64,000 bases of DNA, from NCBI GenBank assembly GCA_000002435.2, contig CM018789.1; one strand, given 5' to 3'. This document shows, in pieces, positions 7,010 through 26,530 of this stretch. Source of the stretch: Giardia intestinalis. Its lineage: Eukaryota. The translations under genes and the position numbers were made by a program. Below the pieces are notes generated by a model that worked only from the letters and a program-made list of their open reading frames with translations, made no database searches and was not told the origin of the DNA. Every line of letters begins with the position of its first letter. The first letter of the stretch is position 1.

Positions 7010-8230
7010 CTTGAGAAGAGCCACATCACACGAGGAAGGGCGCCGTTTACTCGAGGAGAGAGGCGATTGCGTCGTGGCCATGCCTCCTTGCGATGTCGAG
7101 GGCGGTGGTGCCGGGCGGGAAGCCGAGCCACTCACGGGTGGTCTGCATGCCTTTCTCCTTGTCCATCAGGAGCCTCGCACACTCCAGGTGACCACCCTGC
7201 GCTGCATGCATGAGCGCTGTCCATCCGTTGTTAGTCTTCATGCCGTCTTCTTTGTCTACTAGAAGCCTCACGCAGTCCGAGCAACCGTTGTCGGCTGCGT
7301 GCATGAGGGCAGTCCACCCACTGTTGGCCCTCATCCCGCCTTCCTTGTCCAGTAGAGCCTCCGCACACTCGCGGCGCCCATACTGTGCTGCATACATTAG
7401 GGCGGTCTTCCCATCATCCGTTTTCATGCCACCCTCCCTCTCCAGGAGGAGCTGCACGGACTCCAGTTTGCCGCGCCGTGCTGCGTACATAAGGGCGGTG
7501 GTGCCGTTGTTCCTCCGTTTGCCGCCTTCCCTCTTCAGCAGGAACTTCACGCATTCCGGGTGGCCCCCGTACGCCGCCCGCATGAGCGCGGTCTCTCCAA
7601 GCTTATTCTGTGTGCTACCTTTCATCTTCAGCAGAACCTTCACGGCTCTCAGGTTTCCATACTCTGCTGCTGACATGATGTCGGTCTCGACGAAGCCGTA
7701 TTTCAGCAACAAAAAAGACGAGAGACTCAGCCCGCTCCTCCCTTGTTGGTGGTAAAACTCTGCGGCTTCATCGATGCTCCTATCAGAAGCAGACCCCTCG
7801 GTGTCCTGAGGGCGACGACTCGCCTCCGAATCCCTGAGCACACCACTCGACATTTTTAACTTCGTCTGCTTGCAGGAAGACACTGCCACGGAAACACACA
7901 CTTTGCTCTCTGCTTCACTGAAAACGGTTTGTCAACTGCTGTCCGAGCATCTCCGTGAGAGCCGCCGCGCTGGGTGGGCCGCCCGCTCACCGTCCGGGGT
8001 CCAAGGTTCAGATCTTGAAGCTCGAACTCGTGCCCTCATACAAGGCCTCCTCCCCTGTGGGTAGGCGGGTCTCACGCTCGTTCACTTCTCCAATCCAGGA
8101 CTCAGAACTCGAAGCTTGAGCGTCGAATGTCATGATGATTTACTCCACCCACCGGTTGCTTCCAGTGGTGTGCTGCTGGGGCCTGCCTGCAGGTATGGTC
8201 CAGAGATCCCACGGGCAAGCTCTTGCTCAG
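7010..8230. repeat. left arm of perfect inverted repeat (palindrome); partner 11142..12352
   Basis: The reverse complement of 11142-12352 matches 7010-8230 base for base. The ORF-track proteins are identical: 7047..7901(-) = 11461..12315(+), 7210..7755(+) = 11607..12152(-), 7870..8064(+) = 11298..11492(-). The outer boundary is sharp, at cttgagaagag (7010) / ctcttctcaag (12352). Confidence 0.85.
7047..7853 (-). CDS. ankyrin-repeat protein (Protein 21.1 family), palindrome copy A
   Basis: ORF track 7047..7901 starts at GTG. The first ATG with an initiator (gaagttaaaaATG) is at 7853 (MSSGVLRDSEAS...). Five or six TALM-type ankyrin repeats (GETALMRAAYGGH, GTTALMYAARRG, GKTALMYAAQYG, GWTALMHAADNG, GWTALMHAAQGG). 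It is identical at the nucleotide level to copy B at 11509..12315. Confidence 0.7.
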   Translation of the reverse strand: MSSGVLRDSEASRRPQDTEGSASDRSIDEAAEFYHQQGRSGLSLSSFLLLKYGFVETDIMSAAEYGNLRAVKVLLKMKGSTQNKLGETALMRAAYGGHPECVKFLLKREGGKRRNNGTTALMYAARRGKLESVQLLLEREGGMKTDDGKTALMYAAQYGRRECAEALLDKEGGMRANSGWTALMHAADNGCSDCVRLLVDKEDGMKTNNGWTALMHAAQGGHLECARLLMDKEKGMQTTREWLGFPPGTTALDIARRHGHDAIASLLE

Positions 8231-10524: not shown

Positions 10525-11508
10525 CCTGTTTGCTATCCGGCGTCTCGCCTTCTCGGGGTCTGGGTCTGCCTTACTCTGGGCCTGCTCTACTGTGTTGCTT
10601 GAGTCCTCTGGGGCTTCCCACCAGGGCGTTCAGGCCCCTGATAGCAGGGAGCGCGACCCCAGTCCCGGCCTGTTCGATGCTCGCGATCATGCGTGCCCCC
10701 TGGTGGATGAGCATAGCGAGCTCTGTCTGGTTCGGTACTGGGCCGGAATGATCAACTTGTCGTCGCCCAGCACTCTGTGTCTGTCATCGTTTGCTTCTCT
10801 CAGGTGCTCGGTTGGTTGCTTGGCGCTCTCGCACGGTAGGCCACAGAGCCAGCGTGTGTGTCCTGCTGAGAGAGTAAACGTCTTTGGAGTGGTCCCCCGA
10901 GTAGAGACTCACGGCTTGCTCTCTGGGTGTCCCTGAGGTACGATTTTGCATTCGTAGTGCAGATCTGGTCCTCGCGGGCTCTCCTTCGCCTCAGGTCCAG
11001 CTGTGCGCACGCCCACGGAACAGCCGAGGAACGCACAGACCCCAGATCCACAAACGGAGGGAGCTCCTCCTATCACCGTTGTGGCTATCGTTACGACCCG
11101 CGGCCAACCCTCATCTCCAGACTGGCCGGGAATTGAGCGAGGCTTGCCCGTGGGATCTCTGGACCATACCTGCAGGCAGGCCCCAGCAGCACACCACTGG
11201 AAGCAACCGGTGGGTGGAGTAAATCATCATGACATTCGACGCTCAAGCTTCGAGTTCTGAGTCCTGGATTGGAGAAGTGAACGAGCGTGAGACCCGCCTA
11301 CCCACAGGGGAGGAGGCCTTGTATGAGGGCACGAGTTCGAGCTTCAAGATCTGAACCTTGGACCCCGGACGGTGAGCGGGCGGCCCACCCAGCGCGGCGG
11401 CTCTCACGGAGATGCTCGGACAGCAGTTGACAAACCGTTTTCAGTGAAGCAGAGAGCAAAGTGTGTGTTTCCGTGGCAGTGTCTTCCTGCAAGCAGACGA
11501 AGTTAAAA

Positions 11509-12315
11509 ATGTCGAGTGGTGTGCTCAGGGATTCGGAGGCGAGTCGTCGCCCTCAGGACACCGAGGGGTCTGCTTCTGATAGGAGCATCGATGAAGCCGC
11601 AGAGTTTTACCACCAACAAGGGAGGAGCGGGCTGAGTCTCTCGTCTTTTTTGTTGCTGAAATACGGCTTCGTCGAGACCGACATCATGTCAGCAGCAGAG
11701 TATGGAAACCTGAGAGCCGTGAAGGTTCTGCTGAAGATGAAAGGTAGCACACAGAATAAGCTTGGAGAGACCGCGCTCATGCGGGCGGCGTACGGGGGCC
11801 ACCCGGAATGCGTGAAGTTCCTGCTGAAGAGGGAAGGCGGCAAACGGAGGAACAACGGCACCACCGCCCTTATGTACGCAGCACGGCGCGGCAAACTGGA
11901 GTCCGTGCAGCTCCTCCTGGAGAGGGAGGGTGGCATGAAAACGGATGATGGGAAGACCGCCCTAATGTATGCAGCACAGTATGGGCGCCGCGAGTGTGCG
12001 GAGGCTCTACTGGACAAGGAAGGCGGGATGAGGGCCAACAGTGGGTGGACTGCCCTCATGCACGCAGCCGACAACGGTTGCTCGGACTGCGTGAGGCTTC
12101 TAGTAGACAAAGAAGACGGCATGAAGACTAACAACGGATGGACAGCGCTCATGCATGCAGCGCAGGGTGGTCACCTGGAGTGTGCGAGGCTCCTGATGGA
12201 CAAGGAGAAAGGCATGCAGACCACCCGTGAGTGGCTCGGCTTCCCGCCCGGCACCACCGCCCTCGACATCGCAAGGAGGCATGGCCACGACGCAATCGCC
12301 TCTCTCCTCGAGTAA
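11509..12315 (+). CDS. ankyrin-repeat protein (Protein 21.1 family), palindrome copy B
   Basis: Identical to copy A. ATG at 11509 with gaagttaaaaATG. The stop TAA is embedded in the poly(A) signal AGTAAAC (12311-12317). Confidence 0.7.
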   Translation: MSSGVLRDSEASRRPQDTEGSASDRSIDEAAEFYHQQGRSGLSLSSFLLLKYGFVETDIMSAAEYGNLRAVKVLLKMKGSTQNKLGETALMRAAYGGHPECVKFLLKREGGKRRNNGTTALMYAARRGKLESVQLLLEREGGMKTDDGKTALMYAAQYGRRECAEALLDKEGGMRANSGWTALMHAADNGCSDCVRLLVDKEDGMKTNNGWTALMHAAQGGHLECARLLMDKEKGMQTTREWLGFPPGTTALDIARRHGHDAIASLLE

Positions 12316-12317
12316 AC
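12311..12317 (+). promoter_or_regulatory. poly(A) signal AGTAAAC (AGTRAAY consensus) overlapping stop codon of 21.1 copy B
   Basis: ctcgAGTAAACggc: the TAA stop sits inside the signal. The mirror copy gtttact lies at 7045-7051 for copy A. Confidence 0.5.
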
Positions 12318-14060: not shown

Positions 14061-14073
14061 TTTAAAATCCAAC
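14061..14073. promoter_or_regulatory. 13-bp AT-rich spacer (tttaaaatccaac) between divergent start codons; shared/bidirectional initiator region
   Basis: The minus-strand gene ATG is at 14058-14060 and the plus-strand gene ATG at 14074-14076. An AT-rich element sits immediately upstream of both. Confidence 0.4.
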
Positions 14074-14583
14074 ATGCAGACACACTCAGTGGGATTTTCC
14101 TACCAGAATGACCCGTACAGCCTTTCCTCCCGCGCTCTAGCAACCAAAGCGGTAGCAACAATGGATGTTCCCGGTCAGCACCGAAAGCTCGCTGTCCCAG
14201 AACCCATAGATCTGGCGTCTGTAGACGAATGGGTAACTGTCTATGGGATTACTCCATCCAATCTTTCGCTGGCTCTTCACGCCCTTATGAACTTTGGGAC
14301 CATTATGAGGGTCAATTACGCCAATCACCATTTTATTCATGTCCGTTTCAGAGACGCCCTCTCCGCACAAGCCGCGGTTTCTGCGAGAGTAATCTGTCTC
14401 AGCAAGATCTCCATCATCGGCCTTATCCCCTGTCTTGTTAAGGACTTAGACAACGACATAACACTTTGTCACGAGCTTGACCTACCTCCTTATGTGTTGA
14501 CAAAAAAGACGCCCCCAGTGGTCAGTAATGGAATACTCGAGCGGATAATAAATTGGTTTGCGACGCTTCTTAAATCTGATTAA
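14074..14583 (+). CDS. Nup35/Nup53-type RRM (MPPN) domain mini-protein
   Basis: Only the 3' part of ORF 13786..14583 is credible; its 5' part is antisense to the 21.1 gene. WVTVYGITPSNLSLALHALMNFGTIMRVNYANHHFIHVRFRDALSAQAAVSARVICLSKISIIGLIPCLVKDLDND aligns with the human NUP35 RRM ([74 protein letters not shown]). Conserved positions include W-V-T-V-x-G, F..G.I, H(I/V)R(Y/F), A..A.S and IG(V/L)xPC. The start could alternatively be the ATG at 14161. Confidence 0.55.
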   Translation: MQTHSVGFSYQNDPYSLSSRALATKAVATMDVPGQHRKLAVPEPIDLASVDEWVTVYGITPSNLSLALHALMNFGTIMRVNYANHHFIHVRFRDALSAQAAVSARVICLSKISIIGLIPCLVKDLDNDITLCHELDLPPYVLTKKTPPVVSNGILERIINWFATLLKSD

Positions 14584-14748
14584 ATTGGGCCATTTATTTG
14601 CTACCTGCTCACACTATCTGCTTGTACTCAGCTAACGTACTCAACTAACGTATTCAGTTGATTGCTGTATGATCAGTGATGCGAAAGAGTTGGATTACAT
14701 GCCCGTCATGCTCATAGCGGAACATCAGATTTGGAGATTAAAAAACTA

Positions 14749-17700
14749 ATGCGTGCGAAGTCACTGTCACATCACAAACGGCCTGTTTCTGTGTTGAGCA
14801 CTCGAAGTGTGTCGCGCGCACCTCGCAGATTAGTGCGGGGCAGAGATCGCGATCCAAATCAAGATTACGTTCGATCCTTGGTGGCCAATCTCGAGTGCAA
14901 GAATCCTCTCGAGCTGACCACGGCGATTCGAGAGCTAACAGATATTTATGTGTCTAACAAGTATTCAGAGGTCTTTTTCTCCCGCGACGTGCCTACTAAA
15001 GTCTTTAAAGCAACCCTCCAAAACAGTCACAACGCTAAGATATTTGCTCTTGGGAAAACGTTTTTAAAATGCTTCATGGAGTCTTGCGCCTCGCAGTCTT
15101 CTTATATATTTGCGAACCTCAGTATTGATTCTAAAGAATATAGTAGAACCAAGTGTCTAGATTCTCTTCTCAATTACATTATTTCACAGCTCAGTGATAG
15201 TGAAATGTTATATAGTATTTATTTCTATGTGCTTGTGGGGGACATAATCTCAACACATCACGCTTGTGTGCCATTCGTGCACACACTATCACCAATTCAC
15301 TTCATTCAGGTGTATCTCAACAAGGTGTGTAACAACCTCGATATGTGCTCGCAGACAACCAACTCTCTCTCCATTGTGCAGTTGAATCAAATACATAGGG
15401 GCCGCGGCAATGCCAAGGACGGTGACACCAGCGATGGTAACGAATCGACCAACTCCGGGATGACAGTAGCCTCCAGTCTTTCTCTCGACGAGGATTGCAC
15501 TATGCCTACGGTTTGTAAGCAGTTGGATGATGCGCTATCGGAGATCTCGTCAGCACGGAGCATTCTCTCTAACTTTGCTGAGACGGTGTTTAGTAATTCT
15601 GTTCCAGGACAAAAAAGAAAACTGCGAAAAGAGACCGCCTCATATGGCAAGCTTCCTTTGATTAATACTGTTCGCTCGGAGGGTAGCAGTATGGTGTCCG
15701 ACCGCTCATCCATCGAAATTAACAACAGTCAGCACTTGGACTCTGATGATAACGAGGAAGAAAGTGGCTATTATTCTCAGTCTAACAATGGTGACTCTAA
15801 TACCAACTTAAATAGTGACAGATCAAGAGACTTTGGCGAGGATTTGTTCGACGAAAACGATAGGGAGGAGCGACAACCCACTCCACTTGACCACCAAGAA
15901 TCAGCAGTCTTTGTCTCACCACGTACCTGCAATCAAGAACCTAGTCTACACGGCACACAGGCATCCACTGAATTGGCTAAAGACTTACAAAAACAAAGTC
16001 ATGCAGGAGTGAAAGAGCCATCTCAAGATGTGAATATAAGAAATCACTCAAGGTCTTCTTGCAGCAGAAGCAGCGCGTCATTTTGTGAGAAGGATCGCTT
16101 GCTAGAGCTCCCAGCGCTAGGTGATTGCATTCCTGAGATCCCACAACCAGAGCATAAGGATGAGAGCGTCAGGGGACGACCACCTGTCACGAGAGGAGTC
16201 AAGGTCAGACTCCCCCCTATGGTGCATGACCAACGGAATACCTCGAAAGAAACTGGAGCTTACGACCCATTACTAAATGACGCGCTTACCCAGGAATCAT
16301 CTGCGTCTGCGATTCTAACGCCATTTAACTTGGGAACTATATCGGAGGCCAAAGTCTCGTCTGCCGAGCTACAGATGGTGCAAGGAGAAGAGGCTCAATC
16401 CGTCCTAGGCTCTGCAGTCCCCGTTCTTAACCTTCACTTGCCGTTAGCTGTCAATCCTGAACGAGATCCTGTTAATGAGAGCTCGTCTCCTGCACGGCAA
16501 GTGCTCACAACCGCGCGGCGACAGTCTAGGTATATGATTCACAGCACTCAAGCTGGTAAGGGGCGAACGAATGCTGTTGCCTATGGGCAAGCTTCACACA
16601 ACAGAGCCGTCGCTCCTGGGGTCAAGAATCGCTCCTCCTCAAACCTCCTCATCCCGCCTTCCACACCAAATGGAACTCTTTCTAACATCGGGGAGCCATT
16701 TTCTGGAGCAGCTCGTCAATTTTACCCGCAAAAGGACAAGTCTGCTGACTTTACACATGCGGAGCAAATTGAGAAGGTCGAAAGACGTGCAATCTGTGGC
16801 CCATTGGCTTTGGCATCTAAAACGAAACCTTGCAGGCCCTCTATCGTTCCGCTTCTATCACTGAGTTGTCCAGCTCAACAAGAGAAAGACCCTCCTGAAA
16901 TTACCACCCAATCAACACCAAAGCTTTCTCAACAAAAGTTTCCCGGTCTCAGTCTAGGATTATCCTTAGATTTGAAGTCTGTTCACAATCGGGAGAGTAC
17001 AGCACCTTCTATGAGTCATCGAGGACATCCAGGACGATTCGGTGACACAGATTCTCCTGCCACTGGTCAGTCCTACACCGGACTTAATCAGGAGACGGCC
17101 GATTTTGTGTTTGATAAGTATCTTCAGGTTCTTTCTGAACGGCGGAAGGGAATTCCGGAACTCGTGGATGTTGCTAACCGTATTGGCGAGTATACCTTTA
17201 TGCGGGACTATCCCCTGCTATGTTCTCTCAGTCGCGATAAAACCTATTCACACGGGTCCGCGAACTTAACAGCGCGTTCCACACACAGTAGCCTTTCAGT
17301 GTTGACTACATCTACTTCCCAAGCTGTTCAGGCGAATTACATCGTCAATCACCTCTATGTAACCCATAACTATTACACTTATTTAAAGGAACACAAAAGA
17401 CGATACCTTCTCTACAAGCTATTTGGTTCCACTCATACCAGGGATTTGTCTGACTATGAATTTAACTTCTCTATTATGTCAACCGAGCTTTTGCCCCTGG
17501 TGCGTCTTCAGAGAGTGGATCTATCTAGGGAGGATGTCATTCGCCTCGGTGTTAGCTATATTCTCTACCACTGCATCAGGAACCTTTCAAATATAACGCT
17601 GAGGTACTTCCCCAATATCCTGCCAAGCATATGCACAGACCTTATTTCACTGCATCAGCGTAAGACTGGCTTCATACCTGCAGTGGTTCTAGCGTTGTCA

Positions 17701-20700
17701 ACCCTCGTCAACCAAATACACAGCGCAAGCCAAACGCGCATAAGATCAGACTGGATGCGACTATTGTTTAAGATGTATAAGTATGCTAAGCTTACCTATG
17801 ACTACATAGATGTGGACACGGGGGAGTGTGTGCCTGAAAGTGAGCTGAATGTCTGCCACGGGGGCGTAGAAGTCACAACTGAAACTATGCAGGAAAACTT
17901 TCTAGTGGAGAACACTGTTTCCCCGGCAACAGGCCTGCCAAAGCGAAAGATTGGAAAGAGGCATGCAGTAACTCTTCCAGACGACATGTTCTTACTCCAA
18001 CGCCTCGAGGCTCAGCGGCGCATGTACTGCATAGATATGTATACTCTGTCTTTGCGGTTAAGTACTTTAGTATTGATGCCTTATTCCATCTCTGCTTGTG
18101 ATGATATCGCATGTTACTTGGCAGTCATTGCTGACCGGCTGGCCACTTCGCATGCAAACCCGATGGTGCGGGGGCTTGTGACAACGGCGCTTCTTCCATC
18201 GCTTCTAAAAGTCGTGGAACTCTTTCAGACAAGACGAATCAATTCTCGCCTTCACTATATTCTTATTGTCCAACGAATCCTTGAAGTTATGAGCCTGCTA
18301 GCGTCGGACTCTTTTGTTCGTGCCCCTAGCCTTGTGACATCCCCTGAGCCTCCGGTGGTTAGAGCATTGGTCAATAACAACGTCTGCTACACCACCGATC
18401 GATCAATGCAGAACATTGATAACATGCTGTGCGACGCGCTGGTGTTCAACGAGACTAATCTTAAGTGGCTAAGACGCTATAGCTGTCTGATTTTCCTAAA
18501 CACACGCATAAAGGATGAGCTCTCGGGAATGTATTACAGCAAGCCTCAGTGTCAGCACTCCTTTGAGGTCTACAAGATTAAGTTCTCCAAGTATATTATC
18601 ACCATGATTAGACTTCTCCGGTACCACTTCCTCAAGGTGGCTCAGCAGCTCTCCACAAACACAAAATTAGAGACCACAAAGATGTTCACTGCTGCAACTC
18701 ATAATAGCACCCACAGCTCTCACATCGCTTCGCGCCTGGTTGATAGTACGAGAAGGCAAAGCTTTAAGCTAGCAACGAGCTCGTTCCATGCTCCAATATA
18801 TATCACCAAATATGCCAATCTACCAGAGAATGACTATCCACGAGGATTGAAGGAGATTGCAGAGTACACTCAGGAGACACGGCTGAAGAATTTACCTATG
18901 ACTTCGCTGGCTACCTTGTGCACTCTAGAGAGCCATGCCAATATTTTCACAACGGCACGACTGGACCACATCCCCCTAACGCGCTGTGATGAAAGTCATC
19001 GTTTTAATGTGAAGGAGCTTCTCAGAAACAACGACTGCCACAGTATCATCGGCACATGGTCATTCTTATTTGACTTCGAAACAGGAGTTTTCCCACAGTA
19101 TCTTATGCTGGCCAAAAATGGCTCGGATGTTCAGGTTCAGACAGGTGGTGTCAACTTCTCCAAACACTTGGGGCTTTTTGACGATTCTGACCTTCTCAAG
19201 GCTATGCCAACCGCAGAGACGGTGGCAGAGGCCCGAACTCAGCACACGTCAGCAAAGGAGCTCCTGACAGAGCTTTCCAAAAATGCGCTCTCTGCACCTA
19301 CAAGCAGAAAGTCTGTCCTCTACGTCCTTTATACGCTCGCTGAGTTCTTCGCCATTGAAAACGTTGATCTTTATATAAAGCCTACAGACTTGCGAAAATT
19401 CATATCGTTTCATTACAAGTCGTTCTTGAAGCTGTACAACGACTGTGAGGTAGATCTGATTGAATGTATTTTAAGTACCAACAACAGCGTGAGTCTTCTC
19501 GACCTGTGCAATGGGCACCTCAATGTACTTTGCTCTCTCATTCAGATGGATTCTCCAAACACCCGGCAATATTTCTATGAACTTCGCATCATGCAATTTC
19601 TTATTCTGCAGCTGTCAGTCGACAATATTGATCAGAATAGTGGCTGGCAGAGAACAATTGCAGAAAGCGACGCTTCTACACTCCAGAAGATAAACCTTGC
19701 TAAGGCAGAGGCCGATAGAGAATGGGCTATAAAGGTGGCATCTGCACAAGCCCAAAAATTGCTACCTCCTATCTCTATGCCATATTTACGGTCTGATAAC
19801 CCCACAGCCACTCAAGATCAGGCCAAGAAACCTTCGGGAACCAGCCCCACCAAGACTAGTGTGTTCTTCAGCACACCGACACGTCCTTTGAAGCAAACTG
19901 CTCATAGTACCGGATCTCACATTCTAGCGAATAAGGATTATGAACTGGGTGATCTCAGAGCCAATGCTAACGCAGTATCTAGTATGATAGAGGAAGATGT
20001 GGAAGACAAGGTAGTAACTACCGTAAATGGGAGTCAGGAGTCCAAGAAGAGTGCTGCAACGTCACTTTCCACTAAGCCATCAGTGTCTGCAATCTTAACC
20101 CCTGGATTGGAAACCAAGCTGATCACAGACAACAGCTCCACAATGGACCTATTGGAAAAGTCAGAGATCACCGACTGCAACATCAGCGATCAGCTGCAAG
20201 CGACAGCAAAGCAAAAGCAACCAGTTGAGGTAATTAATGGAGATGCCATTCCATCTATAGACACTCTATTTGACTATCATGGATCTGCTGTCATACACCC
20301 CCTAAAGCTCCCCAGCACGGAATCTGAATTGATGGGCTCTCAGCAGTGTACTGACAGAAAAACACCATTAGAGGGCATCAAGCACAAGAGTAGTCTGGTG
20401 ATCACTGCAGTTCCAAAGCGCTCAACCCACATTTACGACGACGATGACAGCGATAGTTGTTGGGACGACGAGGCACAGAAACGCGGCATAGAGTTGCCAA
20501 AACGAGACTCTAAACAGCGGAGGGCTAACGAGCTGGAGCCACCTAAGGCTGATAAGCCCAGTGACGCCTACTCATCTCATGGAGACTCAAGTTTTAGTGA
20601 CTCTAGTGACCTACCACGAGCTCCTCCTGCCACTGTGCCCAAGACCTTCGGATTCACTCTCAAATTACCAGCCGTTAAGGTTTCAATCGATAAGCAGAAC

Positions 20701-23700
20701 GTAGTACTGGAAAAGGAGTCCAATTCTCAGAACATAGCTGGTGGCATTTCACAGTTTGAAGCCGCTGCCGATTCCCTAAACCCCAAATTCCATTTAGTTT
20801 TAGGGAATAGAATCGCAGCCAAACTAGAAACTGCACACTCTCTTCCACTAGCCACGGAAGGTTGCCAGGCTCCGGAGCCGGTTTTAGAAGTGGAGCAAAC
20901 AGATACTGAGGGTTTGAAACAGGGCAAGCAGAGGCAAAAGCAGCCAAAGGCAACCAAGTCAGTGCTTAAGAGGACCAAGTCCACCTTTTCTAGCAGTATC
21001 AGCCTGGCTGGCTTTACCTCTGAATTTGTTCGCGATACCGATGCGAAAAATAACAAGGAACAGCAGCGCTTTCTTACTCACAGCGCAACCGTGGCAAAGC
21101 TCAGTGCTCAAAATCGGCAGACGAGCACTGCCCAGGGTAGTCCAGACAAATGTCGCATCCAGCCGGTTTTACAGCATGGAGTACAGGATCCTCTCCTCGT
21201 TGCTCAAGAGTCGACGCTCTCCACGCTCTCCGGTTACAGAGACTTTGAGCATGGAAATCCATCAGAGCTGGAGGCCTCTGATCTTTTGGAGTACTCTCAG
21301 GCCAGCGCTTCAATAGAAAAGGCGCTTCACCGACCATTATATATCCACGAGGAGCTACACTATACTATTCTGCGAATTGTTTTGCTATTGATCATTGTCC
21401 CCGAGACTGGTACTCTCGATCCGATGTACTGTTCCCAGTTTCCAGCCAATGATGGCATGCCAAACATTCTATGGATCCTTCACCACCATCTTAATCATCC
21501 GAGAAACGAGAAATTCGCCCTTAGGTTAATATCTTCCGACATTTCACCTGCTGCTAAGCGTCTCTTACGCCTCACCTGCTATACTCTGTTTGACTCTACC
21601 TTGTATCCCATCAAGGACGCCACTAAGTTTTCACTCATGGCACAGGGTGCCTATGGATCTGTTTATTCTGGGAATGTATCGCTGGTTACAGAGGACAATC
21701 AGACCAACCAATCATTCCTGACTCCAGTAGCGGTCAAAATCCAGGACAGATCGAAGTCAATTTATGACCGGTGCGTCCTTCACGATATCTTTAACGAAAT
21801 AACTGTAATGGAACGGTTAGCCAATTATAGCGGAGTTAGTCGAATGTATGATTACGGAGTTACGAAGGATGGATACTACATCATCATGCACAAGTACGTT
21901 ACCAGTCTCAGGGATCTCCGTCTCAAACTCTTCGACGACCCAGCCACACTGCAATCCAACCAATTGCTGTATCATCCGGAGCCAAAGTATAAGCATCTGC
22001 CTATATACGGCCACGAACTGTCTTACATGAAGTACATCAGAATCTATCTTCTGATATTCATAAAATTCCTCCGACACCTTGAGTACCTACATACTGCTGG
22101 AGTCAATCACTATGATATAAAGGCCGACAACGTATTCTTTGATCCCAGAACAGTTCAGTGGTACTCTAAACTAGCTAGACTGGATGAAAATAGCAGGCCT
22201 GCCGGTACTGTTGACACTGGGACGCCTATTACAAAGATTTTCCTTGATAAGATCTTCACCGATTACCAGGCTGTACCATCGTACGAACTGCTTCCTTTTC
22301 GCATTGCAATAGCGGACTTTGGAGAGTCGATGGTCTTTTCAGATGAAGAGAGCTCCTACACACTCATCAATAAGGGGACAGAATATAATAAATCGCCAGA
22401 GATGCTGCTCTCGGCAAACATGGTAGCCCAAACCCGGTCTAACTTTGATCGGCGTCGTCCAAAGGGCGCTGGAAGCTCTTCAGACATCTGGTCTGCTGCA
22501 TGCTTCCTTTACGAGCTATTGACAGGTGACATCTTGTTCTTTGACTCTGACTGGATCCGCTTCTTTATCAGAGTCACGAAGGATAGCTATCAGAGCAACG
22601 TGCGAGCAAGGGCACGTGACAAGTCAGCTGCCCAATCATTTACATTTGATCATTCAGGCAAGTTTGCTCAGCTTTACAGGGGAGTTTCGCTTTCTCCAGA
22701 GAAGAAGGCCATGTTGGGGAACTGCCAGCCAATAATAGACCTTCTTGAGTTTTGCTTGGTACCAAACCCTACTCTGCGCCCCCAAATAAGAGACGTTATC
22801 GCCATGACCGAGCACATATTAAAGGTCTATTTTCCAGAAACCTACATGTATAAGCCCGAGTGTTACTATGTGGAGCCGGCGAAGGCGGAGCCATTCATCA
22901 GTAGCAGCTTTTGTTTCAGCATTATCGGAAGTGTTAATGACTGCCTGGTCAATCCTAGCGATGCCCTTGCACCAAAGCTTTCTATTGTCAAAAAGCAATG
23001 CGAACAATCCCCGAACTCTGTACAGAAGCAATTGGAGAGCCATGCTGCTATACCCAGCTACCTTCTTGCGACGGCTCAGCTCACTAGCCCTGTGTTGGGT
23101 CAACCCTGTGCCACGCTTCCTGTCAAAGTGATGCCTCCTGCCACTAATATTATAGATGGGTTTCTGTGGATAGGGTCTGTTTCCGTCTTGCGGCATGCAG
23201 AGCATCTTCTGGCATATAACGTTACGTCTGTGATTGATTGCCTAACGACCTCTCTAGAGCAGTCCATGGAGACCAAGCGAGTTATAGAAATGACCACTAT
23301 CCACTATTATAAGCTCCCCCTTGTTCTCACACAAATTATTAATCCCACGTCCAACAAGACGCTCTTTCTGGGTTCTCCTCGCGAAAGTACTCCGGGTTTA
23401 CCTAAGGCAGAGTTCCTGCGATACTCAGCCGCCCTGGACAGCGTGCTGGACTTCCTGCGCAGAACGGTCACCCATGGAGGCAGGTGCCTGCTTTACGACG
23501 AGAACGGTACCGGCCTCTCTGCTGCAGTGGCAATAGCCATGCTCGTGGAATTTAGATCTCTGTCTCTGTTTGCTGCTTACCTCCACGTCAGGAACCTCAG
23601 GCCTCACATTGCACCTCCCCTTCCGTTCTTAGATTTCCTGCACTACTGGTTCTTATTCAGAGTTCGACCAGGAATTAAGAACAAAGACTTTCTCTATGCG

Positions 23701-24291
23701 AACTCTTCGTACTTCAGACAAATTCTTTTCAAGCCTACACCGACATTTGAGCAACTTATTAATCTAAGGATCAGTAAGGCGCGATATCAGTGTCTTTGTG
23801 GCAAGATCTTCTTTATAGTCAAGCCAGACGTGAAGCGGATGCCGACATTTGTGCTTTGCAACTGTGCATATACACCGCAGCTTTCCAAGGACTCCCCAGG
23901 AACACCTGGAAAGGCCCTGAGCCAACCAGCCTGTCCTACTCTATCGTGCCGATCCATAATCAATCTATTCATGTCTATTTACGGATTGCGTCTCGGACGA
24001 ATCCTTTGGGCCTTTCTTCCTGCTCGAGACGTTGTCTCTAATTGGAAGACAGACACGATGGGAATAAGGAACATTCCCTCAACACCCCACGCCATCGAGA
24101 GAGCCTCAGCAGACATGTATAACAAGTTTACGGGCCTCGACAATATGCGCGCTCCAATCAATCGCATACCCCGACAGAGAAATTGGGAGCTCTATTACTG
24201 CAAGATTTGCGGGCTGGTGACCCATGCTGCTGATGCTTCCTCTCCAGATGCAGTACAGCTGGCTATTCTGGCAAACTTTTCCCCGAAGTGA
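14749..24291 (+). CDS. giant (3181 aa) protein with C-terminal Ser/Thr protein-kinase domain followed by a catalytically inactive dual-specificity-phosphatase-like domain
   Basis: The ORF-track start at 14731 is TTG; the ATG is at 14749 with gagattaaaaaactaATG. Kinase motifs in order: AQGAYGSVY (Gly loop), VAVKIQ (beta3 Lys), HYDIKADN (catalytic loop), ADFGES (DFG), NKSPEMLL (APE-like), SDIWSAACFLYELLTG. About 200 aa later a DUSP fold: IDGFLWIGSVSV...AYNVTSVIDCL...CLLYDENGTGLSAAVAIAMLV aligns to the VLVHCQAGVSRSAT signature with Cys->Asp and Arg->Leu. Confidence 0.75.
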   Translation: MRAKSLSHHKRPVSVLSTRSVSRAPRRLVRGRDRDPNQDYVRSLVANLECKNPLELTTAIRELTDIYVSNKYSEVFFSRDVPTKVFKATLQNSHNAKIFALGKTFLKCFMESCASQSSYIFANLSIDSKEYSRTKCLDSLLNYIISQLSDSEMLYSIYFYVLVGDIISTHHACVPFVHTLSPIHFIQVYLNKVCNNLDMCSQTTNSLSIVQLNQIHRGRGNAKDGDTSDGNESTNSGMTVASSLSLDEDCTMPTVCKQLDDALSEISSARSILSNFAETVFSNSVPGQKRKLRKETASYGKLPLINTVRSEGSSMVSDRSSIEINNSQHLDSDDNEEESGYYSQSNNGDSNTNLNSDRSRDFGEDLFDENDREERQPTPLDHQESAVFVSPRTCNQEPSLHGTQASTELAKDLQKQSHAGVKEPSQDVNIRNHSRSSCSRSSASFCEKDRLLELPALGDCIPEIPQPEHKDESVRGRPPVTRGVKVRLPPMVHDQRNTSKETGAYDPLLNDALTQESSASAILTPFNLGTISEAKVSSAELQMVQGEEAQSVLGSAVPVLNLHLPLAVNPERDPVNESSSPARQVLTTARRQSRYMIHSTQAGKGRTNAVAYGQASHNRAVAPGVKNRSSSNLLIPPSTPNGTLSNIGEPFSGAARQFYPQKDKSADFTHAEQIEKVERRAICGPLALASKTKPCRPSIVPLLSLSCPAQQEKDPPEITTQSTPKLSQQKFPGLSLGLSLDLKSVHNRESTAPSMSHRGHPGRFGDTDSPATGQSYTGLNQETADFVFDKYLQVLSERRKGIPELVDVANRIGEYTFMRDYPLLCSLSRDKTYSHGSANLTARSTHSSLSVLTTSTSQAVQANYIVNHLYVTHNYYTYLKEHKRRYLLYKLFGSTHTRDLSDYEFNFSIMSTELLPLVRLQRVDLSREDVIRLGVSYILYHCIRNLSNITLRYFPNILPSICTDLISLHQRKTGFIPAVVLALSTLVNQIHSASQTRIRSDWMRLLFKMYKYAKLTYDYIDVDTGECVPESELNVCHGGVEVTTETMQENFLVENTVSPATGLPKRKIGKRHAVTLPDDMFLLQRLEAQRRMYCIDMYTLSLRLSTLVLMPYSISACDDIACYLAVIADRLATSHANPMVRGLVTTALLPSLLKVVELFQTRRINSRLHYILIVQRILEVMSLLASDSFVRAPSLVTSPEPPVVRALVNNNVCYTTDRSMQNIDNMLCDALVFNETNLKWLRRYSCLIFLNTRIKDELSGMYYSKPQCQHSFEVYKIKFSKYIITMIRLLRYHFLKVAQQLSTNTKLETTKMFTAATHNSTHSSHIASRLVDSTRRQSFKLATSSFHAPIYITKYANLPENDYPRGLKEIAEYTQETRLKNLPMTSLATLCTLESHANIFTTARLDHIPLTRCDESHRFNVKELLRNNDCHSIIGTWSFLFDFETGVFPQYLMLAKNGSDVQVQTGGVNFSKHLGLFDDSDLLKAMPTAETVAEARTQHTSAKELLTELSKNALSAPTSRKSVLYVLYTLAEFFAIENVDLYIKPTDLRKFISFHYKSFLKLYNDCEVDLIECILSTNNSVSLLDLCNGHLNVLCSLIQMDSPNTRQYFYELRIMQFLILQLSVDNIDQNSGWQRTIAESDASTLQKINLAKAEADREWAIKVASAQAQKLLPPISMPYLRSDNPTATQDQAKKPSGTSPTKTSVFFSTPTRPLKQTAHSTGSHILANKDYELGDLRANANAVSSMIEEDVEDKVVTTVNGSQESKKSAATSLSTKPSVSAILTPGLETKLITDNSSTMDLLEKSEITDCNISDQLQATAKQKQPVEVINGDAIPSIDTLFDYHGSAVIHPLKLPSTESELMGSQQCTDRKTPLEGIKHKSSLVITAVPKRSTHIYDDDDSDSCWDDEAQKRGIELPKRDSKQRRANELEPPKADKPSDAYSSHGDSSFSDSSDLPRAPPATVPKTFGFTLKLPAVKVSIDKQNVVLEKESNSQNIAGGISQFEAAADSLNPKFHLVLGNRIAAKLETAHSLPLATEGCQAPEPVLEVEQTDTEGLKQGKQRQKQPKATKSVLKRTKSTFSSSISLAGFTSEFVRDTDAKNNKEQQRFLTHSATVAKLSAQNRQTSTAQGSPDKCRIQPVLQHGVQDPLLVAQESTLSTLSGYRDFEHGNPSELEASDLLEYSQASASIEKALHRPLYIHEELHYTILRIVLLLIIVPETGTLDPMYCSQFPANDGMPNILWILHHHLNHPRNEKFALRLISSDISPAAKRLLRLTCYTLFDSTLYPIKDATKFSLMAQGAYGSVYSGNVSLVTEDNQTNQSFLTPVAVKIQDRSKSIYDRCVLHDIFNEITVMERLANYSGVSRMYDYGVTKDGYYIIMHKYVTSLRDLRLKLFDDPATLQSNQLLYHPEPKYKHLPIYGHELSYMKYIRIYLLIFIKFLRHLEYLHTAGVNHYDIKADNVFFDPRTVQWYSKLARLDENSRPAGTVDTGTPITKIFLDKIFTDYQAVPSYELLPFRIAIADFGESMVFSDEESSYTLINKGTEYNKSPEMLLSANMVAQTRSNFDRRRPKGAGSSSDIWSAACFLYELLTGDILFFDSDWIRFFIRVTKDSYQSNVRARARDKSAAQSFTFDHSGKFAQLYRGVSLSPEKKAMLGNCQPIIDLLEFCLVPNPTLRPQIRDVIAMTEHILKVYFPETYMYKPECYYVEPAKAEPFISSSFCFSIIGSVNDCLVNPSDALAPKLSIVKKQCEQSPNSVQKQLESHAAIPSYLLATAQLTSPVLGQPCATLPVKVMPPATNIIDGFLWIGSVSVLRHAEHLLAYNVTSVIDCLTTSLEQSMETKRVIEMTTIHYYKLPLVLTQIINPTSNKTLFLGSPRESTPGLPKAEFLRYSAALDSVLDFLRRTVTHGGRCLLYDENGTGLSAAVAIAMLVEFRSLSLFAAYLHVRNLRPHIAPPLPFLDFLHYWFLFRVRPGIKNKDFLYANSSYFRQILFKPTPTFEQLINLRISKARYQCLCGKIFFIVKPDVKRMPTFVLCNCAYTPQLSKDSPGTPGKALSQPACPTLSCRSIINLFMSIYGLRLGRILWAFLPARDVVSNWKTDTMGIRNIPSTPHAIERASADMYNKFTGLDNMRAPINRIPRQRNWELYYCKICGLVTHAADASSPDAVQLAILANFSPK

Positions 24292-24442: not shown

Positions 24443-26530
24443 CTAGACACCGCGTAAGGATATAGCCCTAGCCAAAGTGCCGCACTGAGGACACTTGGTG
24501 ATTGACTCAGGGTTAGATGTGGCAATCCTGTGGCCACACGGCGAACATACAGCAGCCTCGCCCAAGATCGGAGACACAGTTGCAGAGCAGGAGCGAAGAA
24601 TGGTCGGGTCACTGGATATAACGTCGATGATCGCCACCTTGAGGTCCTCCGGGTCTGCGGCTTTAGCGCCAATCTTAGTGCGAAGTAGGCTAGCTTCGTT
24701 TTTCGCACTTAGTATATCTTTTCCCATAGAAAACTGCTGTCTTTTAATTTGTTCCAGCTCCTTTCTCACCTTTGCAAACTCCCTGAGAATCTGCCTAATC
24801 GTGCCGCTGTCGGCTCCACCGCTACCAAGTTCAGAGGGTTCTTGGAAGAATGAGTTCAGGGATTTATCCTCGTAATACGAGATATTTTTGCTTACATCTG
24901 TATTTAACTGCTGGAGTGGCTTTGTGTCCACAGAAGCAAGCGCCTCTGTGCCAGTTTTATTGAGGATATGAGGTTGCGGGACATACGTTGATGGATTGCT
25001 AGTTTGATAGAAGTCATCACTGTCCTGTGAAGGCGTTTGAATGGCAACAGGACCGCTGGGAATAGCAGGAAACTGAGAAATAGACTTCTTTCTAACACCA
25101 CGAGGTATGTTAGTAGGTAGAATAACTGCATTAGCCACATGGGCTTCTATGTCAGAGCACTCGTCAATTGACACTCTAAGGCCTCCAGAGTGTCTTCTGG
25201 GAGCACCAGACACAGAGTTAAGTCTTTTGAAGCGGTGCTTCTTTTCCCTAGACAAAGATGGAGCCTTAGGAGGGACAGTCGTCATAGCCTTGTATTCAGC
25301 GCACTCTCGCTTCAAGGCATCTATCTCTCTATCCTTTCTTGTTACAATGTCGCTTAATCGCTGTACTTCTGCAGTAAGCTTCACCATCTCATGGTCCTCA
25401 GAACTGGCGAGAAGGGCATCCAGTACTGATTGGGATTGCTGCTGCTCGTTTTTCACGCGGTCTATTTCCTCTTTCATAAGCCTCACTGTCTTGTTCAGGG
25501 CTTCAACTTCATGTCTGGCGTCATCATACTTTTCTGCTCTGCTTTTATATGTAGCTCCCTCTTCCTTAAGGCGCTCGATTTCCATAGCGAGACCCTTATC
25601 ATTTTCCAAGTGACTCTTATCAACTAAGGCCTCTAGCTTTTTAATTGTATCGTGTGCCACCATTAGTTCATGCTTAAGTTTCTCAATTGTATCTGTGTCG
25701 GCTGCTTCTCCTAAAATAGGACTAGCCTCGGTGTCTGCTGAGATGCATTGTTGGAACGAGGCATCGGGGTCAACAATTGTATGCACAACAGACTTAGAGT
25801 AAAGGTAATCTTGTTGACCGGTTGGGAAGGTAATGCTGTCATTTTTGCGTGCAACAGAAACCATGCGCATGACCTTGGCGTTCTCCAAAATCAGAGGACC
25901 CTCTGTGTCTATTAGCAGCTCAGCGACCGAGCCGTGATTGTTCCAGACAGCCGACATTAGAGCTGTCCACCCATATGGATCCATGACACGTGCCTCAGCG
26001 CCCATGAGAAATTTAACCACAGAATAGTGTCCATTCCACGCTGCAGACATGAGTGCGGTCCACCCCTTCTGATCGACCATGCCCTTTTCCCGTTCGTAAA
26101 GGAGCTTCACAACATCTAGGTGTCCATTCCAGGCCGCACACATTAACGCAGTCCAGCCATCTACATCTTGCATCCCCACTTCCTCGCTGTAAAGATAATT
26201 CACCACTTCTAGGTGTCCGTTCCACGCAGCGGACATGAGTGCGGTCCAACCACTGCAATCACGCATGCGGATTTCCTGGTGGGATAGGTAGCGAACACAG
26301 TCCCAGTTCCCAGACCACGACGCATACATCAGCGCAGTCCAGCCGTCTTCATCAGCCTGCCCAAGCTCGTAAGGCGCGAGCATCTCCACGATCTCAACGT
26401 GACCTTCCTGGGCCGCCAACATCAACGCTGTGCGTCCCTCTTGGTCCCGCTGTCTAGCATACTCCTCCAAAAGCTCTGCAACTAGCTCGGTGTTCCCCGC
26501 AAACGCGGCCTCCATGAGCCTAGTGGTCAT
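24443..26530 (-). CDS. ankyrin-repeat (21.1-type) + central coiled-coil protein with C-terminal CxxC...CxxC motif
   Basis: ATG at 26530 with tctataaaatttattgggcggATG. N-terminal repeats GRTALMLAAQEGH, GWTALMYASWSG, GWTALMSAAWNGH (x3). A long heptad-rich middle. C-terminus CSPCGHRIATSNPESITKCPQCG. Confidence 0.7.
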   Translation of the reverse strand: MTTRLMEAAFAGNTELVAELLEEYARQRDQEGRTALMLAAQEGHVEIVEMLAPYELGQADEDGWTALMYASWSGNWDCVRYLSHQEIRMRDCSGWTALMSAAWNGHLEVVNYLYSEEVGMQDVDGWTALMCAAWNGHLDVVKLLYEREKGMVDQKGWTALMSAAWNGHYSVVKFLMGAEARVMDPYGWTALMSAVWNNHGSVAELLIDTEGPLILENAKVMRMVSVARKNDSITFPTGQQDYLYSKSVVHTIVDPDASFQQCISADTEASPILGEAADTDTIEKLKHELMVAHDTIKKLEALVDKSHLENDKGLAMEIERLKEEGATYKSRAEKYDDARHEVEALNKTVRLMKEEIDRVKNEQQQSQSVLDALLASSEDHEMVKLTAEVQRLSDIVTRKDREIDALKRECAEYKAMTTVPPKAPSLSREKKHRFKRLNSVSGAPRRHSGGLRVSIDECSDIEAHVANAVILPTNIPRGVRKKSISQFPAIPSGPVAIQTPSQDSDDFYQTSNPSTYVPQPHILNKTGTEALASVDTKPLQQLNTDVSKNISYYEDKSLNSFFQEPSELGSGGADSGTIRQILREFAKVRKELEQIKRQQFSMGKDILSAKNEASLLRTKIGAKAADPEDLKVAIIDVISSDPTILRSCSATVSPILGEAAVCSPCGHRIATSNPESITKCPQCGTLARAISLRGV

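What the first reader, a model, noticed from the sequence alone, without database searches (positions are those of the whole stretch)
21600..23650. Protein kinase fused to a catalytically dead DUSP-like (pseudophosphatase) domain inside a 3181-aa protein
The kinase domain retains Gly-loop, VAVK, HYD-I-K-ADN, DFG and APE-like motifs and is plausibly active. About 200 aa downstream a dual-specificity-phosphatase fold is recognisable (IDGFLWIGS...AYNVTSVIDCL...). Its signature aligns to VHCxxGxxRS as LYDENGTGLS: the catalytic Cys is replaced by Asp and the Arg by Leu, a STYX-like arrangement. A kinase plus pseudophosphatase in one chain suggests a phospho-substrate trapping or scaffolding module. 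About 2200 aa upstream have no recognisable domains.
Basis: partly seen in the sequence, partly recalled or inferred. Interest (0 to 1): 0.65.

Follow-up and report, generated by a model that had tools for sequence, protein, structure and literature searches.

The report
Giardia Uni1 kinase with dead phosphatase domain
This is the already-catalogued Giardia gene "Kinase, Uni1": an apparently active protein kinase followed by a phosphatase-shaped domain that has lost its catalytic residues (as in all its relatives) and a zinc-binding end domain.

Summary
The ORF 14749-24291 (+), 3180 aa, is 100% identical to Giardia intestinalis WB XP_001706398.1, "Kinase, Uni1" (GL50803_16436).

Manning et al. 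[quoted passage not shown]

- **Kinase:** Pfam Pkinase, E=1e-16. Every catalytic residue is invariant in about 100 homologues. It is a non-RD kinase (H-Y-D).
- **DSP fold:** the AlphaFold model matches DUSP28, DUSP5, DUSP9 and DUSP14 with probability 1.0.
- **Dead active site:** Asp2917 replaces the Cys and Leu2923 replaces the Arg. I found no candidate general-acid Asp and no other CX5R in the domain.

Three points go beyond the finding:
- The dead site is family-wide. None of 138 relatives has an intact CX5R.
- An unannotated GFA/CENP-V-like (beta-tent) zinc domain with eight conserved Cys follows the DSP domain in the complete sequences.
- Both domains are as conserved between Giardia assemblages as the kinase.

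STYX-like phospho-trapping is unlikely in Giardia, because the Arg is lost and the pocket is acidic. A non-catalytic regulatory or docking cassette is the better reading.

Novelty: already known. The pseudophosphatase status and the zinc domain are incremental additions.

The parts
14749..24291 (+). Complete ORF, 3180 aa plus stop. It is Giardia intestinalis WB GL50803_16436 / XP_001706398.1 / UniProt A8BL13, 'Kinase, Uni1'.
   Evidence: ORF list and translation. 100% identity over all regions to P0282, which NCBI and UniRef name 'Kinase, Uni1 [Giardia intestinalis]'. The N-terminal sequence is identical to GL50803_16436 as printed in Additional file 1 of PMC3218828.
17986..19848 (+). N-terminal conserved, hydrophobic-rich (probably helical) region, aa ~1080-1700. 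It has no Pfam family and is flanked by long polar, probably disordered stretches (aa ~200-800 and ~1650-2190).
   Evidence: phmmer matches to Carpediemonas P0003 (query aa 1080-1291 and 1552-1625), P0032 (aa 1543-1697) and P0001 (aa 1521-1626), plus composition by 100-aa bins. No Pfam hit.
21319..21618 (+). Family-specific ~100-aa extension just before the kinase domain (aa 2191-2290: LHYTILRIV...TGTLD...QFP...NI..ILHHHLNH...RLLRL).
   Evidence: Found in 88 of 103 kinase homologues by jackhmmer. 96% identical between Giardia WB and P15.
21619..22848 (+). Protein kinase domain, aa 2291-2700. Ser/Thr-type and non-RD (H-Y-D), with all catalytic residues present.
   Evidence: Pfam Pkinase E=1.2e-16. 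Invariance in homologues: K2330 97/97, E2350 98/98, H2454/D2456/K2458/N2461 101/101, D2523 99/100, G2525 100/100, P2550-E2551 104/104, R2677 97/97. Manning 2011 lists it as 'Active (K,D,D present)'.
22132..22308 (+). Insert of ~59 aa between the catalytic loop (HYDIKADN) and DFG (aa 2462-2520).
   Evidence: Read directly from the sequence. Homologues such as P0004 also carry an insert here.
23140..23727 (+). Dual-specificity-phosphatase-fold domain with no catalytic residues (pseudophosphatase), aa 2798-2993. It includes a low-confidence insert at aa ~2835-2885.
   Evidence: AF2 model pLDDT 79.7. Foldseek PDB top hits are all DUSPs, including DUSP28, DUSP5, DUSP9 and DUSP14; STYX is also in the list. 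Probability 1.0 and target TM-scores mostly 0.65-0.81 for the standalone DUSP chains. DSPc Pfam hit at 28 bits, and 18/27 homologous domains hit DSPc. 94% identical between WB and P15, against 80-86% in the linker and disordered regions.
23494..23520 (+). Degenerate P-loop Y-D-E-N-G-T-G-L-S (aa 2916-2924), aligned to the H-C-x-x-G-x-x-R-S signature. Asp2917 replaces the nucleophilic Cys and Leu2923 replaces the Arg.
   Evidence: phmmer alignment to DUSP28. Column analysis in 55 and then 138 homologues. No CX5R in the domain.
23776..24276 (+). C-terminal Cys-rich zinc-binding domain of the beta-tent (Mss4-like) fold, closest to GFA/CENP-V, aa ~3010-3176. Eight conserved Cys: 3015, 3017, 3037, 3039, 3062, 3067, 3151, 3154. 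No Pfam family.

Best explanation
**What it is.** The gene is the Giardia member of the Uni1 ('unicellular kinase 1') family. The C-terminal ~1000 aa form a conserved four-part cassette:
- a ~100-aa pre-kinase extension;
- an active, non-RD Ser/Thr kinase;
- a DSP-fold domain that cannot dephosphorylate anything;
- a two-zinc GFA/CENP-V-like beta-tent domain.

The N-terminal ~2200 aa is a lineage-expanded scaffold. It alternates conserved, probably helical blocks with long disordered stretches.

**Shown.**
- The gene's identity.
- Kinase competence at the sequence level.
- The DSP fold and the loss of the Cys and the Arg, with no candidate general-acid Asp.
- The dead site is ancestral to the family.
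- The zinc-domain fold.
- Purifying selection on both non-kinase domains.

**Inferred (most likely mechanism).**
- The pseudo-DSP and zinc domains act together as a non-catalytic regulatory or targeting module. They would either dock substrates or partners, or pack on the kinase to set its activity.
- A non-RD kinase is not expected to be switched by activation-loop phosphorylation, so control has to come from elsewhere. This rests on general knowledge of RD versus non-RD kinases.
- In Giardia the pocket is acidic and lacks Arg, so any binding is probably not to phosphate.
For: - **Identity:**
- **Kinase:** Pfam E=1.2e-16. Catalytic K, E, HxDxKxxN, DFG, SPE and R are invariant in ~100 homologues, and Y/F always replaces the R of HRD.
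- **DSP fold:**
- **Dead site:**
- **Family-wide loss:** in 138 proteins that carry both the DSP-like and Cys-rich domains, the catalytic-Cys column reads D 59, S 43, E 14, G 9, C 3. None of the three Cys cases has the Arg. By contrast, 72 of 97 DSP-only hits in the same search have Cys.
- **P-loop length varies widely,** from deleted to more than 40 residues inserted.
- **The two domains travel together:** 47 of the 55 DSP-bearing kinases also show the Cys-rich domain. Several of the eight exceptions have a DSP match that runs to the last residues of the sequence and so look truncated.
- **Constraint,** WB versus P15 identity: kinase 96%, DSP 94%, zinc domain 96%, disordered regions 84-86%, linker 80%. 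In more distant relatives (P0153, P0154): kinase 60-63%, zinc domain 43-45%, DSP 36-39%, disordered regions 22-34%.
- **Zinc domain fold and ligands:**
Against: - There are no experimental data for any family member. Manning 2011 calls it 'Uncharacterized', and I found no paper on GL50803_16436.
- I could not obtain inter-domain contacts. Whether the module packs on the kinase is therefore untested.
- A subset of the family keeps a perfect P-loop except for Cys to Ser, for example Y-S-x-x-G-x-S-R-S in Cavenderia and Balamuthia. Phosphate or phospho-substrate binding may therefore be the ancestral role and could persist in those members.
- Kinase activity is inferred from motifs only.
Confidence: 0.6

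Rival explanations
1. STYX-like phospho-substrate trap. The dead DSP domain binds phosphorylated products of the kinase, or phosphorylated partners, and holds them.
For: - The DSP fold is intact and conserved.
- 43 of 138 relatives have the classical trapping substitution Cys to Ser, and many of these keep G-x-x-R-[SA].
- STYX itself appears among the fold matches (2r0b).
Against: - In Giardia and the other diplomonad-type sequences the Arg is replaced (L, V, F, A), and Asp sits at the base of the pocket, where it would repel phosphate.
- No general-acid Asp candidate.
- The P-loop is deleted or hugely expanded in many members, so phosphate binding is not the family-conserved property.
Confidence: 0.15
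2. Ligand- or redox-sensing cassette. The GFA/CENP-V-like zinc domain, alone or with the DSP-like pocket, binds a small molecule (thiol, aldehyde or nucleotide-like) or senses oxidation through its eight Cys, and passes this to the kinase.
For: - The closest folds are ligand-binding beta-tent proteins: GFA, cereblon CULT and MsrB.
- Eight conserved Cys.
- A non-RD kinase needs a control mechanism other than activation-loop phosphorylation (general knowledge).
Against: - There is fold-level similarity only. No Pfam GFA hit in any of 25 members at E<=1.
- Beta-tent domains are also pure protein-protein modules, such as Mis18, Yippee and Mss4.
- No ligand-site residues could be tested here.
Confidence: 0.15
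3. Evolutionary relic. The DSP-like domain is a decaying remnant of a once bifunctional kinase-phosphatase and now has no function beyond acting as a spacer.
For: - All catalytic residues are gone and the P-loop is highly variable.
- The Pfam score is below the gathering threshold.
Against: - The fold is retained in Metamonada (Giardia, Hexamita, Kipferlia, Carpediemonas), Amoebozoa (Cavenderia, Balamuthia) and a green alga (Chloroparvula).
- It is 94% identical between Giardia assemblages, against 80-86% for neighbouring linker and disordered segments, and the P-loop is identical.
- It co-occurs with the zinc domain in 47 of the 55 DSP-bearing kinases, and several of the exceptions look truncated at the C-terminus.
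Confidence: 0.05
4. Residual or altered catalysis. Asp2917 would act as an alternative nucleophile, so the domain would be a weak or unconventional phosphatase.
For: - Asp or Glu is the commonest residue at the Cys position (73 of 138), which suggests selection for an acidic side chain.
- From memory, and not checked here: a PTP1B C215D mutant was reported to keep a native structure and low activity.
Against: - The P-loop Arg that binds and orients phosphate is absent, and no general acid is present.
- In most Asp-type relatives the loop carries long insertions that are incompatible with a phosphate cradle.
Confidence: 0.03

Closest known systems
Uni1 protein kinase family (kinase.com / Manning et al. 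[quoted passage not shown] 2006)
   Same: This is the family's Giardia member, not merely a relative. NCBI and UniProt name it 'Kinase, Uni1'. [quoted passage not shown]
   Different: Nothing differs in identity. Three points appear to be unstated in the papers I could read. First, the DSPc domain is catalytically dead in every member sampled. Second, it is followed by a GFA/CENP-V-like zinc domain in the complete sequences. Third, parabasalid, some green-algal and oomycete relatives of the kinase lack this module.
STYX and other DSP-fold pseudophosphatases
   Same: A DSP fold with the nucleophilic Cys replaced, and a presumed non-catalytic role. STYX 2r0b is among the fold matches.
   Different: From my own knowledge, STYX has Gly for Cys, keeps the P-loop Arg, binds phosphoproteins and is a small stand-alone protein. 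Here the substitutions are Cys to Asp and Arg to Leu, no general acid is present, and the domain is fused to a kinase and a zinc domain.
Trypanosomatid 'kinatases' (Brenchley et al. 2007)
   Same: Kinase-like and DSP domains in one protist protein. That paper notes a kinase + phosphatase architecture in Giardia, Tetrahymena and Dictyostelium.
   Different: The logic is reversed. Kinatases have two pseudokinase domains, LRRs and an apparently active DSP. Uni1 has an active-looking kinase, a dead DSP and no LRRs.
Arabidopsis PHS1 (MAP-kinase-phosphatase-like protein with an atypical tubulin kinase domain)
   Same: One chain with a kinase and a DSP domain. From memory, the phosphatase domain restrains the kinase in cis, which is a precedent for an intramolecular regulatory role. 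One homologue (P0006) is named 'PHS1 family' by NCBI.
   Different: From memory, not tested here: the PHS1 kinase is actin-fragmin-kinase-like rather than a canonical ePK, and its DSP has an active Cys. Uni1 is a canonical Pkinase with a dead DSP.
GFA / CENP-V domain and other beta-tent (Mss4-like) zinc domains (cereblon CULT, Yippee/Mis18, MsrB, STEEP1)
   Different: No significant sequence match (E=2.3) and no Pfam GFA hit. It carries helical and disordered inserts, and the second zinc site is split by ~23 residues. It has not previously been described fused to a kinase and DSP, as far as I could find.
DUSP12 / Yvh1 (DSP + C-terminal zinc-binding domain)
   Same: The same domain order: a DSP fold followed by a Cys-rich zinc domain.

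Membership tests
Uni1 protein kinase family | Assignment of this exact sequence to Uni1 by the family's curators | tested here: met
   100% identity to XP_001706398.1 / A8BL13, 'Kinase, Uni1'. GL50803_16436 is listed as Other/Uni1 in PMC3218828 Additional file 1.
Uni1 protein kinase family | Shared kinase-domain signature with relatives (pre-kinase extension, H[YF]D[IL]KxDN, DFGE, GTxxxKSPEML) | tested here: met
   Column counts in ~100 homologues. The pre-kinase region is found in 88 of 103.
Eukaryotic protein kinase, catalytically competent | Beta3 Lys, alphaC Glu, catalytic Asp and Asn, DFG Asp | tested here: met
   K2330, E2350, D2456, N2461 and D2523 are present and invariant in the family. 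Pfam Pkinase is above the gathering score. Enzyme activity itself cannot be tested here.
Dual-specificity phosphatase (PTP superfamily, DSPc) | DSP alpha/beta fold | tested here: met
   AF2 model plus Foldseek: 210 PDB hits at E<=1e-3, the top hits all DUSPs, target TM-scores mostly 0.65-0.81 for the standalone DUSP chains.
Dual-specificity phosphatase (PTP superfamily, DSPc) | Active-site signature H-C-x5-R-[ST] with nucleophilic Cys and phosphate-binding Arg | tested here: not met
   The aligned signature is Y-D-E-N-G-T-G-L-S. There is no C-x5-R anywhere in aa 2785-2998.
Dual-specificity phosphatase (PTP superfamily, DSPc) | General-acid Asp in the loop upstream of the P-loop | tested here: not met
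   No Asp between aa 2831 and 2896, the stretch that holds the corresponding strand and loop. The loop is a low-confidence insert in the model, so the exact alignment is uncertain.
Dual-specificity phosphatase (PTP superfamily, DSPc) | Pfam DSPc score at or above the gathering threshold (33.5 bits) | tested here: not met
   21.1 bits in the whole protein and 28 bits for the isolated domain. Homologous domains reach E=1e-24.
STYX-type pseudophosphatase | Cys replaced (Gly in STYX) while the P-loop Arg and phosphate binding are retained | tested here: not met
   Cys is replaced by Asp, and the Arg is also lost, to Leu. Phosphate binding is not testable here.
GFA / CENP-V (beta-tent, Mss4-like) zinc domain | Beta-tent fold | tested here: met
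GFA / CENP-V (beta-tent, Mss4-like) zinc domain | Cys ligand motifs: CxC plus a distal CxxC, and a second Cys cluster | tested here: met
   C3015/C3017 and C3151/C3154 are invariant. C3037/C3039 and C3062/C3067 are invariant or >=90%. They are collinear with the motifs of 3fac. Zinc binding itself is not testable here.
GFA / CENP-V (beta-tent, Mss4-like) zinc domain | Significant sequence match to the family profile (Pfam GFA) | tested here: not met
   No GFA hit in any of 25 members at E<=1. The PDB profile search gives 3fac only at E=2.3.
Trypanosomatid kinatase | Pseudokinase domains + LRRs + catalytically intact DSP | tested here: not met
   The kinase is intact, there is no LRR Pfam hit, and the DSP is dead. 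The definition is taken from PMC2175518.

The most novel reading that the evidence does not exclude
The dead DSP fold plus the GFA/CENP-V-like two-zinc domain would form one ancient cassette. The cassette is found in Metamonada, Amoebozoa and a green alga; per Manning et al. 2011 the kinase family is absent from animals, fungi and plants. It would work as a sensor: it binds a non-phosphate ligand, or responds to thiol oxidation or zinc release, and thereby switches an otherwise constitutively competent non-RD kinase. That would be a kinase-control mechanism with no counterpart in animal or fungal signalling.
Probability: 0.15. Interest if true: 0.65.

Novelty: already known. Interest (0 to 1): 0.35.

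Why it matters
Uni1 is one of the few protein kinase families that Manning et al. 2011 label 'Primordial' and for which no function is known in any organism. Giardia, with its minimal kinome of about 80 core kinases, keeps one copy as a 3180-aa protein.

This analysis does not add the kinase + DSPc fusion, which was recorded in 2006-2011. It adds three things:
- The phosphatase domain is dead in every member sampled, and comes in two flavours. One is a Ser type that keeps the Arg. The other is an Asp/Glu type that does not.
- An unannotated GFA/CENP-V-like zinc domain is an integral part of the cassette.
- Both non-kinase domains are under constraint comparable to that on the kinase.

These points give concrete constructs and mutants for a first functional study. 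They also suggest that a dictyostelid could be a tractable model.

For genome annotation, the region should be read as 'kinase, Uni1; pseudophosphatase (DSP fold); GFA-like zinc domain'. It should not be read as a bifunctional kinase/phosphatase.

Tried and rejected
- **Membership of the trypanosomatid 'kinatases':** rejected. Their architecture is the reverse.
- **A hidden CX5R elsewhere in the domain:** none.
- **Active-Cys relatives of the module:** I searched 1.84 billion representatives with a DSP + Cys-rich profile. Only 3 of 138 two-domain proteins have Cys at the site, and none of those has the Arg.
- **Word-indexed homology search with the Cys-rich alignment:** only 3 fragments returned, uninformative.
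- **Pfam on the Cys-rich domain:** nothing above threshold. STEEP1 at E=0.0055 is consistent with the beta-tent fold but is not a membership.
- **Literature searches:** GL50803_16436, '16436 + Giardia', 'Uni1', 'pseudophosphatase + Giardia' and 'kinome + DSPc' found no functional study and no statement that the domain is dead. An EMBO J 2026 Plasmodium paper that matched the terms was irrelevant.
- **Gene-fusion or assembly artefact:** rejected. There is one uninterrupted 9.5-kb ORF, the same protein occurs in other Giardia isolates, and collinear N-terminal matches occur in Carpediemonas and other long relatives.
- **Inter-domain packing:** not obtainable.
Full report
**1. What is in the sequence**

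The window holds one uninterrupted ORF on the + strand, 14731-24291. Its first ATG is at 14749, giving 3180 aa.

Pfam finds a protein kinase domain at aa 2321-2685 (E=1.2e-16, above the gathering score). It also finds a sub-threshold DSPc match at aa 2892-2964 (21.1 bits against a cut-off of 33.5).

A phmmer search of the PDB with the C-terminal 963 aa aligns CLLYDENGTGLSAAV to CLVYSKNGRSRSAAV of human DUSP28.

**2. Identity of the gene**

The N-terminal sequence is identical to GL50803_16436 as printed in Additional file 1 of Manning et al. 2011 (PMC3218828).

The whole 3180-aa translation is 100% identical to XP_001706398.1 / UniProt A8BL13, 'Kinase, Uni1 [Giardia intestinalis]', strain WB.

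[quoted passage not shown] - Goldberg et al. [quoted passage not shown]
- Brenchley et al. 2007 mention a kinase + phosphatase architecture in Giardia, Tetrahymena and Dictyostelium.

The fusion itself is therefore already on record. I found no paper that studies the protein's function, or that says the phosphatase domain is inactive.

**3. The kinase**

I examined about 100 homologues collected from a 5.8-billion-protein database. The catalytic residues are invariant:

| Residue or motif | Conservation |
|---|---|
| beta3 Lys (K2330) | 97/97 |
| alphaC Glu (E2350) | 98/98 |
| His, Asp, Lys and Asn of the catalytic loop H-[YF]-D-[IL]-K-x-D-N | 101/101 each |
| DFG Asp | 99/100 |
| Pro and Glu of the S-P-E motif | 104/104 each |
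| D-x-W-S: Asp and Trp (Ser 98/104) | 104/104 |
| subdomain XI Arg | 97/97 |

- The Lys in the catalytic loop and the G-T of the P+1 loop are the Ser/Thr-kinase pattern (established knowledge of ePK motifs).
- The Arg of HRD is always Tyr or Phe, so this is a non-RD family. By general knowledge such kinases are not usually switched by activation-loop phosphorylation.
- An extension of about 100 aa precedes the kinase in 88 of 103 homologues.
- An insert of about 59 aa separates the catalytic loop from DFG.

**4. The DSP-like domain**

An AlphaFold2 model of aa 2785-2998, built with 27 aligned homologues, has pLDDT 79.7 and pTM 0.75.

- Foldseek against the PDB returns 210 hits at E<=1e-3. The top 50 are essentially all dual-specificity phosphatases: DUSP28, 5, 9, 14, 19, 8, 10, MKPs, PTPMT1 and STYX.
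- 18 of the 27 homologous domains hit Pfam DSPc, best E=1e-24.

The fold, and homology to DSPs, are therefore established.

The active site is gone:
- There is no C-x5-R in the domain. The only one in the protein is part of a zinc motif at aa 3062.
- No Asp lies between aa 2831 and 2896, where the general-acid loop would be. That stretch is a low-confidence insert in the model.

**5. The dead site is ancestral**

In 55 DSP-like domains among the first homologues, the catalytic column is never Cys.

I then searched 1.84 billion representatives with a profile of the DSP + C-terminal module. There were 70 hits at E<=1e-30.

| Set | Residue at the catalytic-Cys column |
|---|---|
| 138 proteins with both domains | D 59, S 43, E 14, G 9, C 3 (none of the three with the Arg) |
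| DSP-only hits in the same search | C in 72 of 97 |

Two flavours stand out.
- **Ser type.** It keeps the whole P-loop (Y-S-x-x-G-x-S-R-[SA]), for example in the amoebozoans Cavenderia and Balamuthia.
- **Asp/Glu type.** It often has the loop expanded by 8 to more than 40 residues. In some members the loop is deleted.

Giardia and its close relatives are Asp-type with a canonical loop length but no Arg: CLLYDENGTGLS, CLFYDDTGNGFA and VLVYDEHGDNLA.

Because the phosphate cradle is not conserved, phosphate binding cannot be the conserved function of the domain. It may survive in the Ser-type members.

**6. An overlooked third domain**

After the DSP fold comes a Cys-rich region, aa ~3010-3176.

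- C3015, C3017, C3151 and C3154 are invariant. C3037, C3039, C3062 and C3067 are invariant or at least 90% conserved.
- It has no Pfam family.
- The AF2 model has pLDDT 81.1.
- A profile search of PDB sequences is not significant (E=2.3). It nevertheless aligns the three Cys motifs collinearly with 3fac: CxCG, CxC and CxxCGxxTH.

I read it as a divergent GFA/CENP-V-like domain with two zinc sites.

The DSP-like and zinc domains travel together. Of the 55 kinases with the DSP-like domain, 47 also show the zinc domain, and several of the eight exceptions look truncated at the C-terminus. Kinase relatives from Trichomonas and Tritrichomonas, some green algae and oomycetes show little or none of the module: no DSP-like domain, and only a marginal C-terminal Cys-rich match in the Saprolegnia sequences.

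**7. Constraint**

| Region | WB vs P15 identity | WB vs distant relatives (P0153, P0154) |
|---|---|---|
| Kinase | 96% | 60-63% |
| Pre-kinase extension | 96% | 47-51% |
| Zinc domain | 96% | 43-45% |
| DSP-like domain | 94% (P-loop identical) | 36-39% |
| Disordered stretches | 84-86% | 22-34% |
| Kinase-DSP linker | 80% | 29-35% |

The dead domain is therefore maintained by selection, which argues against a mere relic.

**8. The N-terminal 2200 aa**

There are no Pfam domains. The region is not featureless, however.
- aa 1-200 and ~800-1650 are hydrophobic-rich.
- aa ~1080-1700 match Carpediemonas and other long family members.
- aa ~200-800 and ~1650-2190 are polar and probably disordered.
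- Long relatives exist in Kipferlia (3405 aa) and in unnamed metagenomic sequences of 2726 and 3518 aa.

**9. Most likely mechanism**

- **Shown:** an intact kinase catalytic core, a dead DSP fold, a zinc beta-tent domain, and co-inheritance of and constraint on the last two.
- **Inferred:** the DSP-like and zinc pair is a non-catalytic regulatory or targeting cassette for a non-RD kinase. It would act either by docking partners or by packing on the kinase.

STYX-like phospho-trapping is improbable in Giardia, because the Arg is lost and the pocket is acidic.

Rivals and the experiments that would separate them are given in the structured fields.

**10. Verdict**

'Dead DSP fused to a live kinase' holds. 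'STYX-like phospho-trap' does not fit.
- The gene and its kinase + DSPc architecture are already catalogued, so the finding is not new.
- The family-wide pseudophosphatase status, its two flavours and the GFA-like zinc domain are modest additions. They make an uncharacterized, deeply conserved kinase family easier to attack experimentally.

Noticed in passing
window 6996-8220 and 11142-12366 (spacer 8221-11141): A perfect 1225-nt inverted repeat. Each arm carries an identical 284-aa ankyrin-repeat ORF (7047..7901 on the - strand, 11461..12315 on the + strand). It encloses 2921 nt of GC-rich DNA (about 0.60 against about 0.48 elsewhere, with strongly negative AT skew). The spacer has only broken ORFs, and no Pfam, Rfam or tandem-repeat hits. 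It could be a degenerate mobile or foreign insertion flanked by a duplicated gene, or an assembly artefact.
   Followed up: partly
window 1416-3959(-), 12900-14075(-), 24443-26530(-), 51051-58232(+), 58363-62877(+): The large ORF sits among ankyrin-repeat protein genes of the kind that are abundant in Giardia. Other neighbours are a 5MP/BZW-like gene (29472-30704, HEAT_5MP1_2 + W2), an ADA2-like gene (42618-48482) and a small ARID-domain ORF (5017-5826).
   Followed up: no
window 14749 versus about 14809 (start codon of the big ORF): RefSeq and UniProt use the ATG at 14749 (3180 aa). Many automated gene calls on Logan assemblies give a 3160-aa product, 100% identical across the aligned part and lacking about 20 N-terminal residues. 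Other isolates are annotated at 3182-3186 aa. The true start has not been verified.
   Followed up: no
homologues P0142 (Cavenderia fasciculata), P0150 (Balamuthia mandrillaris), P0021, P0019, P0074: A subfamily keeps a canonical P-loop in which only the nucleophile is changed (Y/V-S-x-x-G-x-S-R-[SA]). This is a natural equivalent of the laboratory Cys-to-Ser substrate-trapping mutant. These members, unlike the Giardia one, may still bind phospho-ligands.
   Followed up: partly
homologues P0006 and P0150 (database names): Two source names look wrong. P0006 is labelled 'MAG: dual specificity protein phosphatase PHS1 family protein [archaeon]', but it is a eukaryote-type Uni1 kinase with a dead DSP, probably from a mis-binned contig. 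The Balamuthia homologue P0150 is labelled 'NEK protein kinase'.
   Followed up: no
aa 2835-2885 of the ORF (window about 23251-23403): The DSP-like domain carries an insert: a helix at aa ~2836-2853 followed, after a short strand, by a roughly 25-residue low-confidence loop. It sits where the general-acid loop of active DSPs lies. It is longer than in most homologues, and its role is unknown.
   Followed up: no
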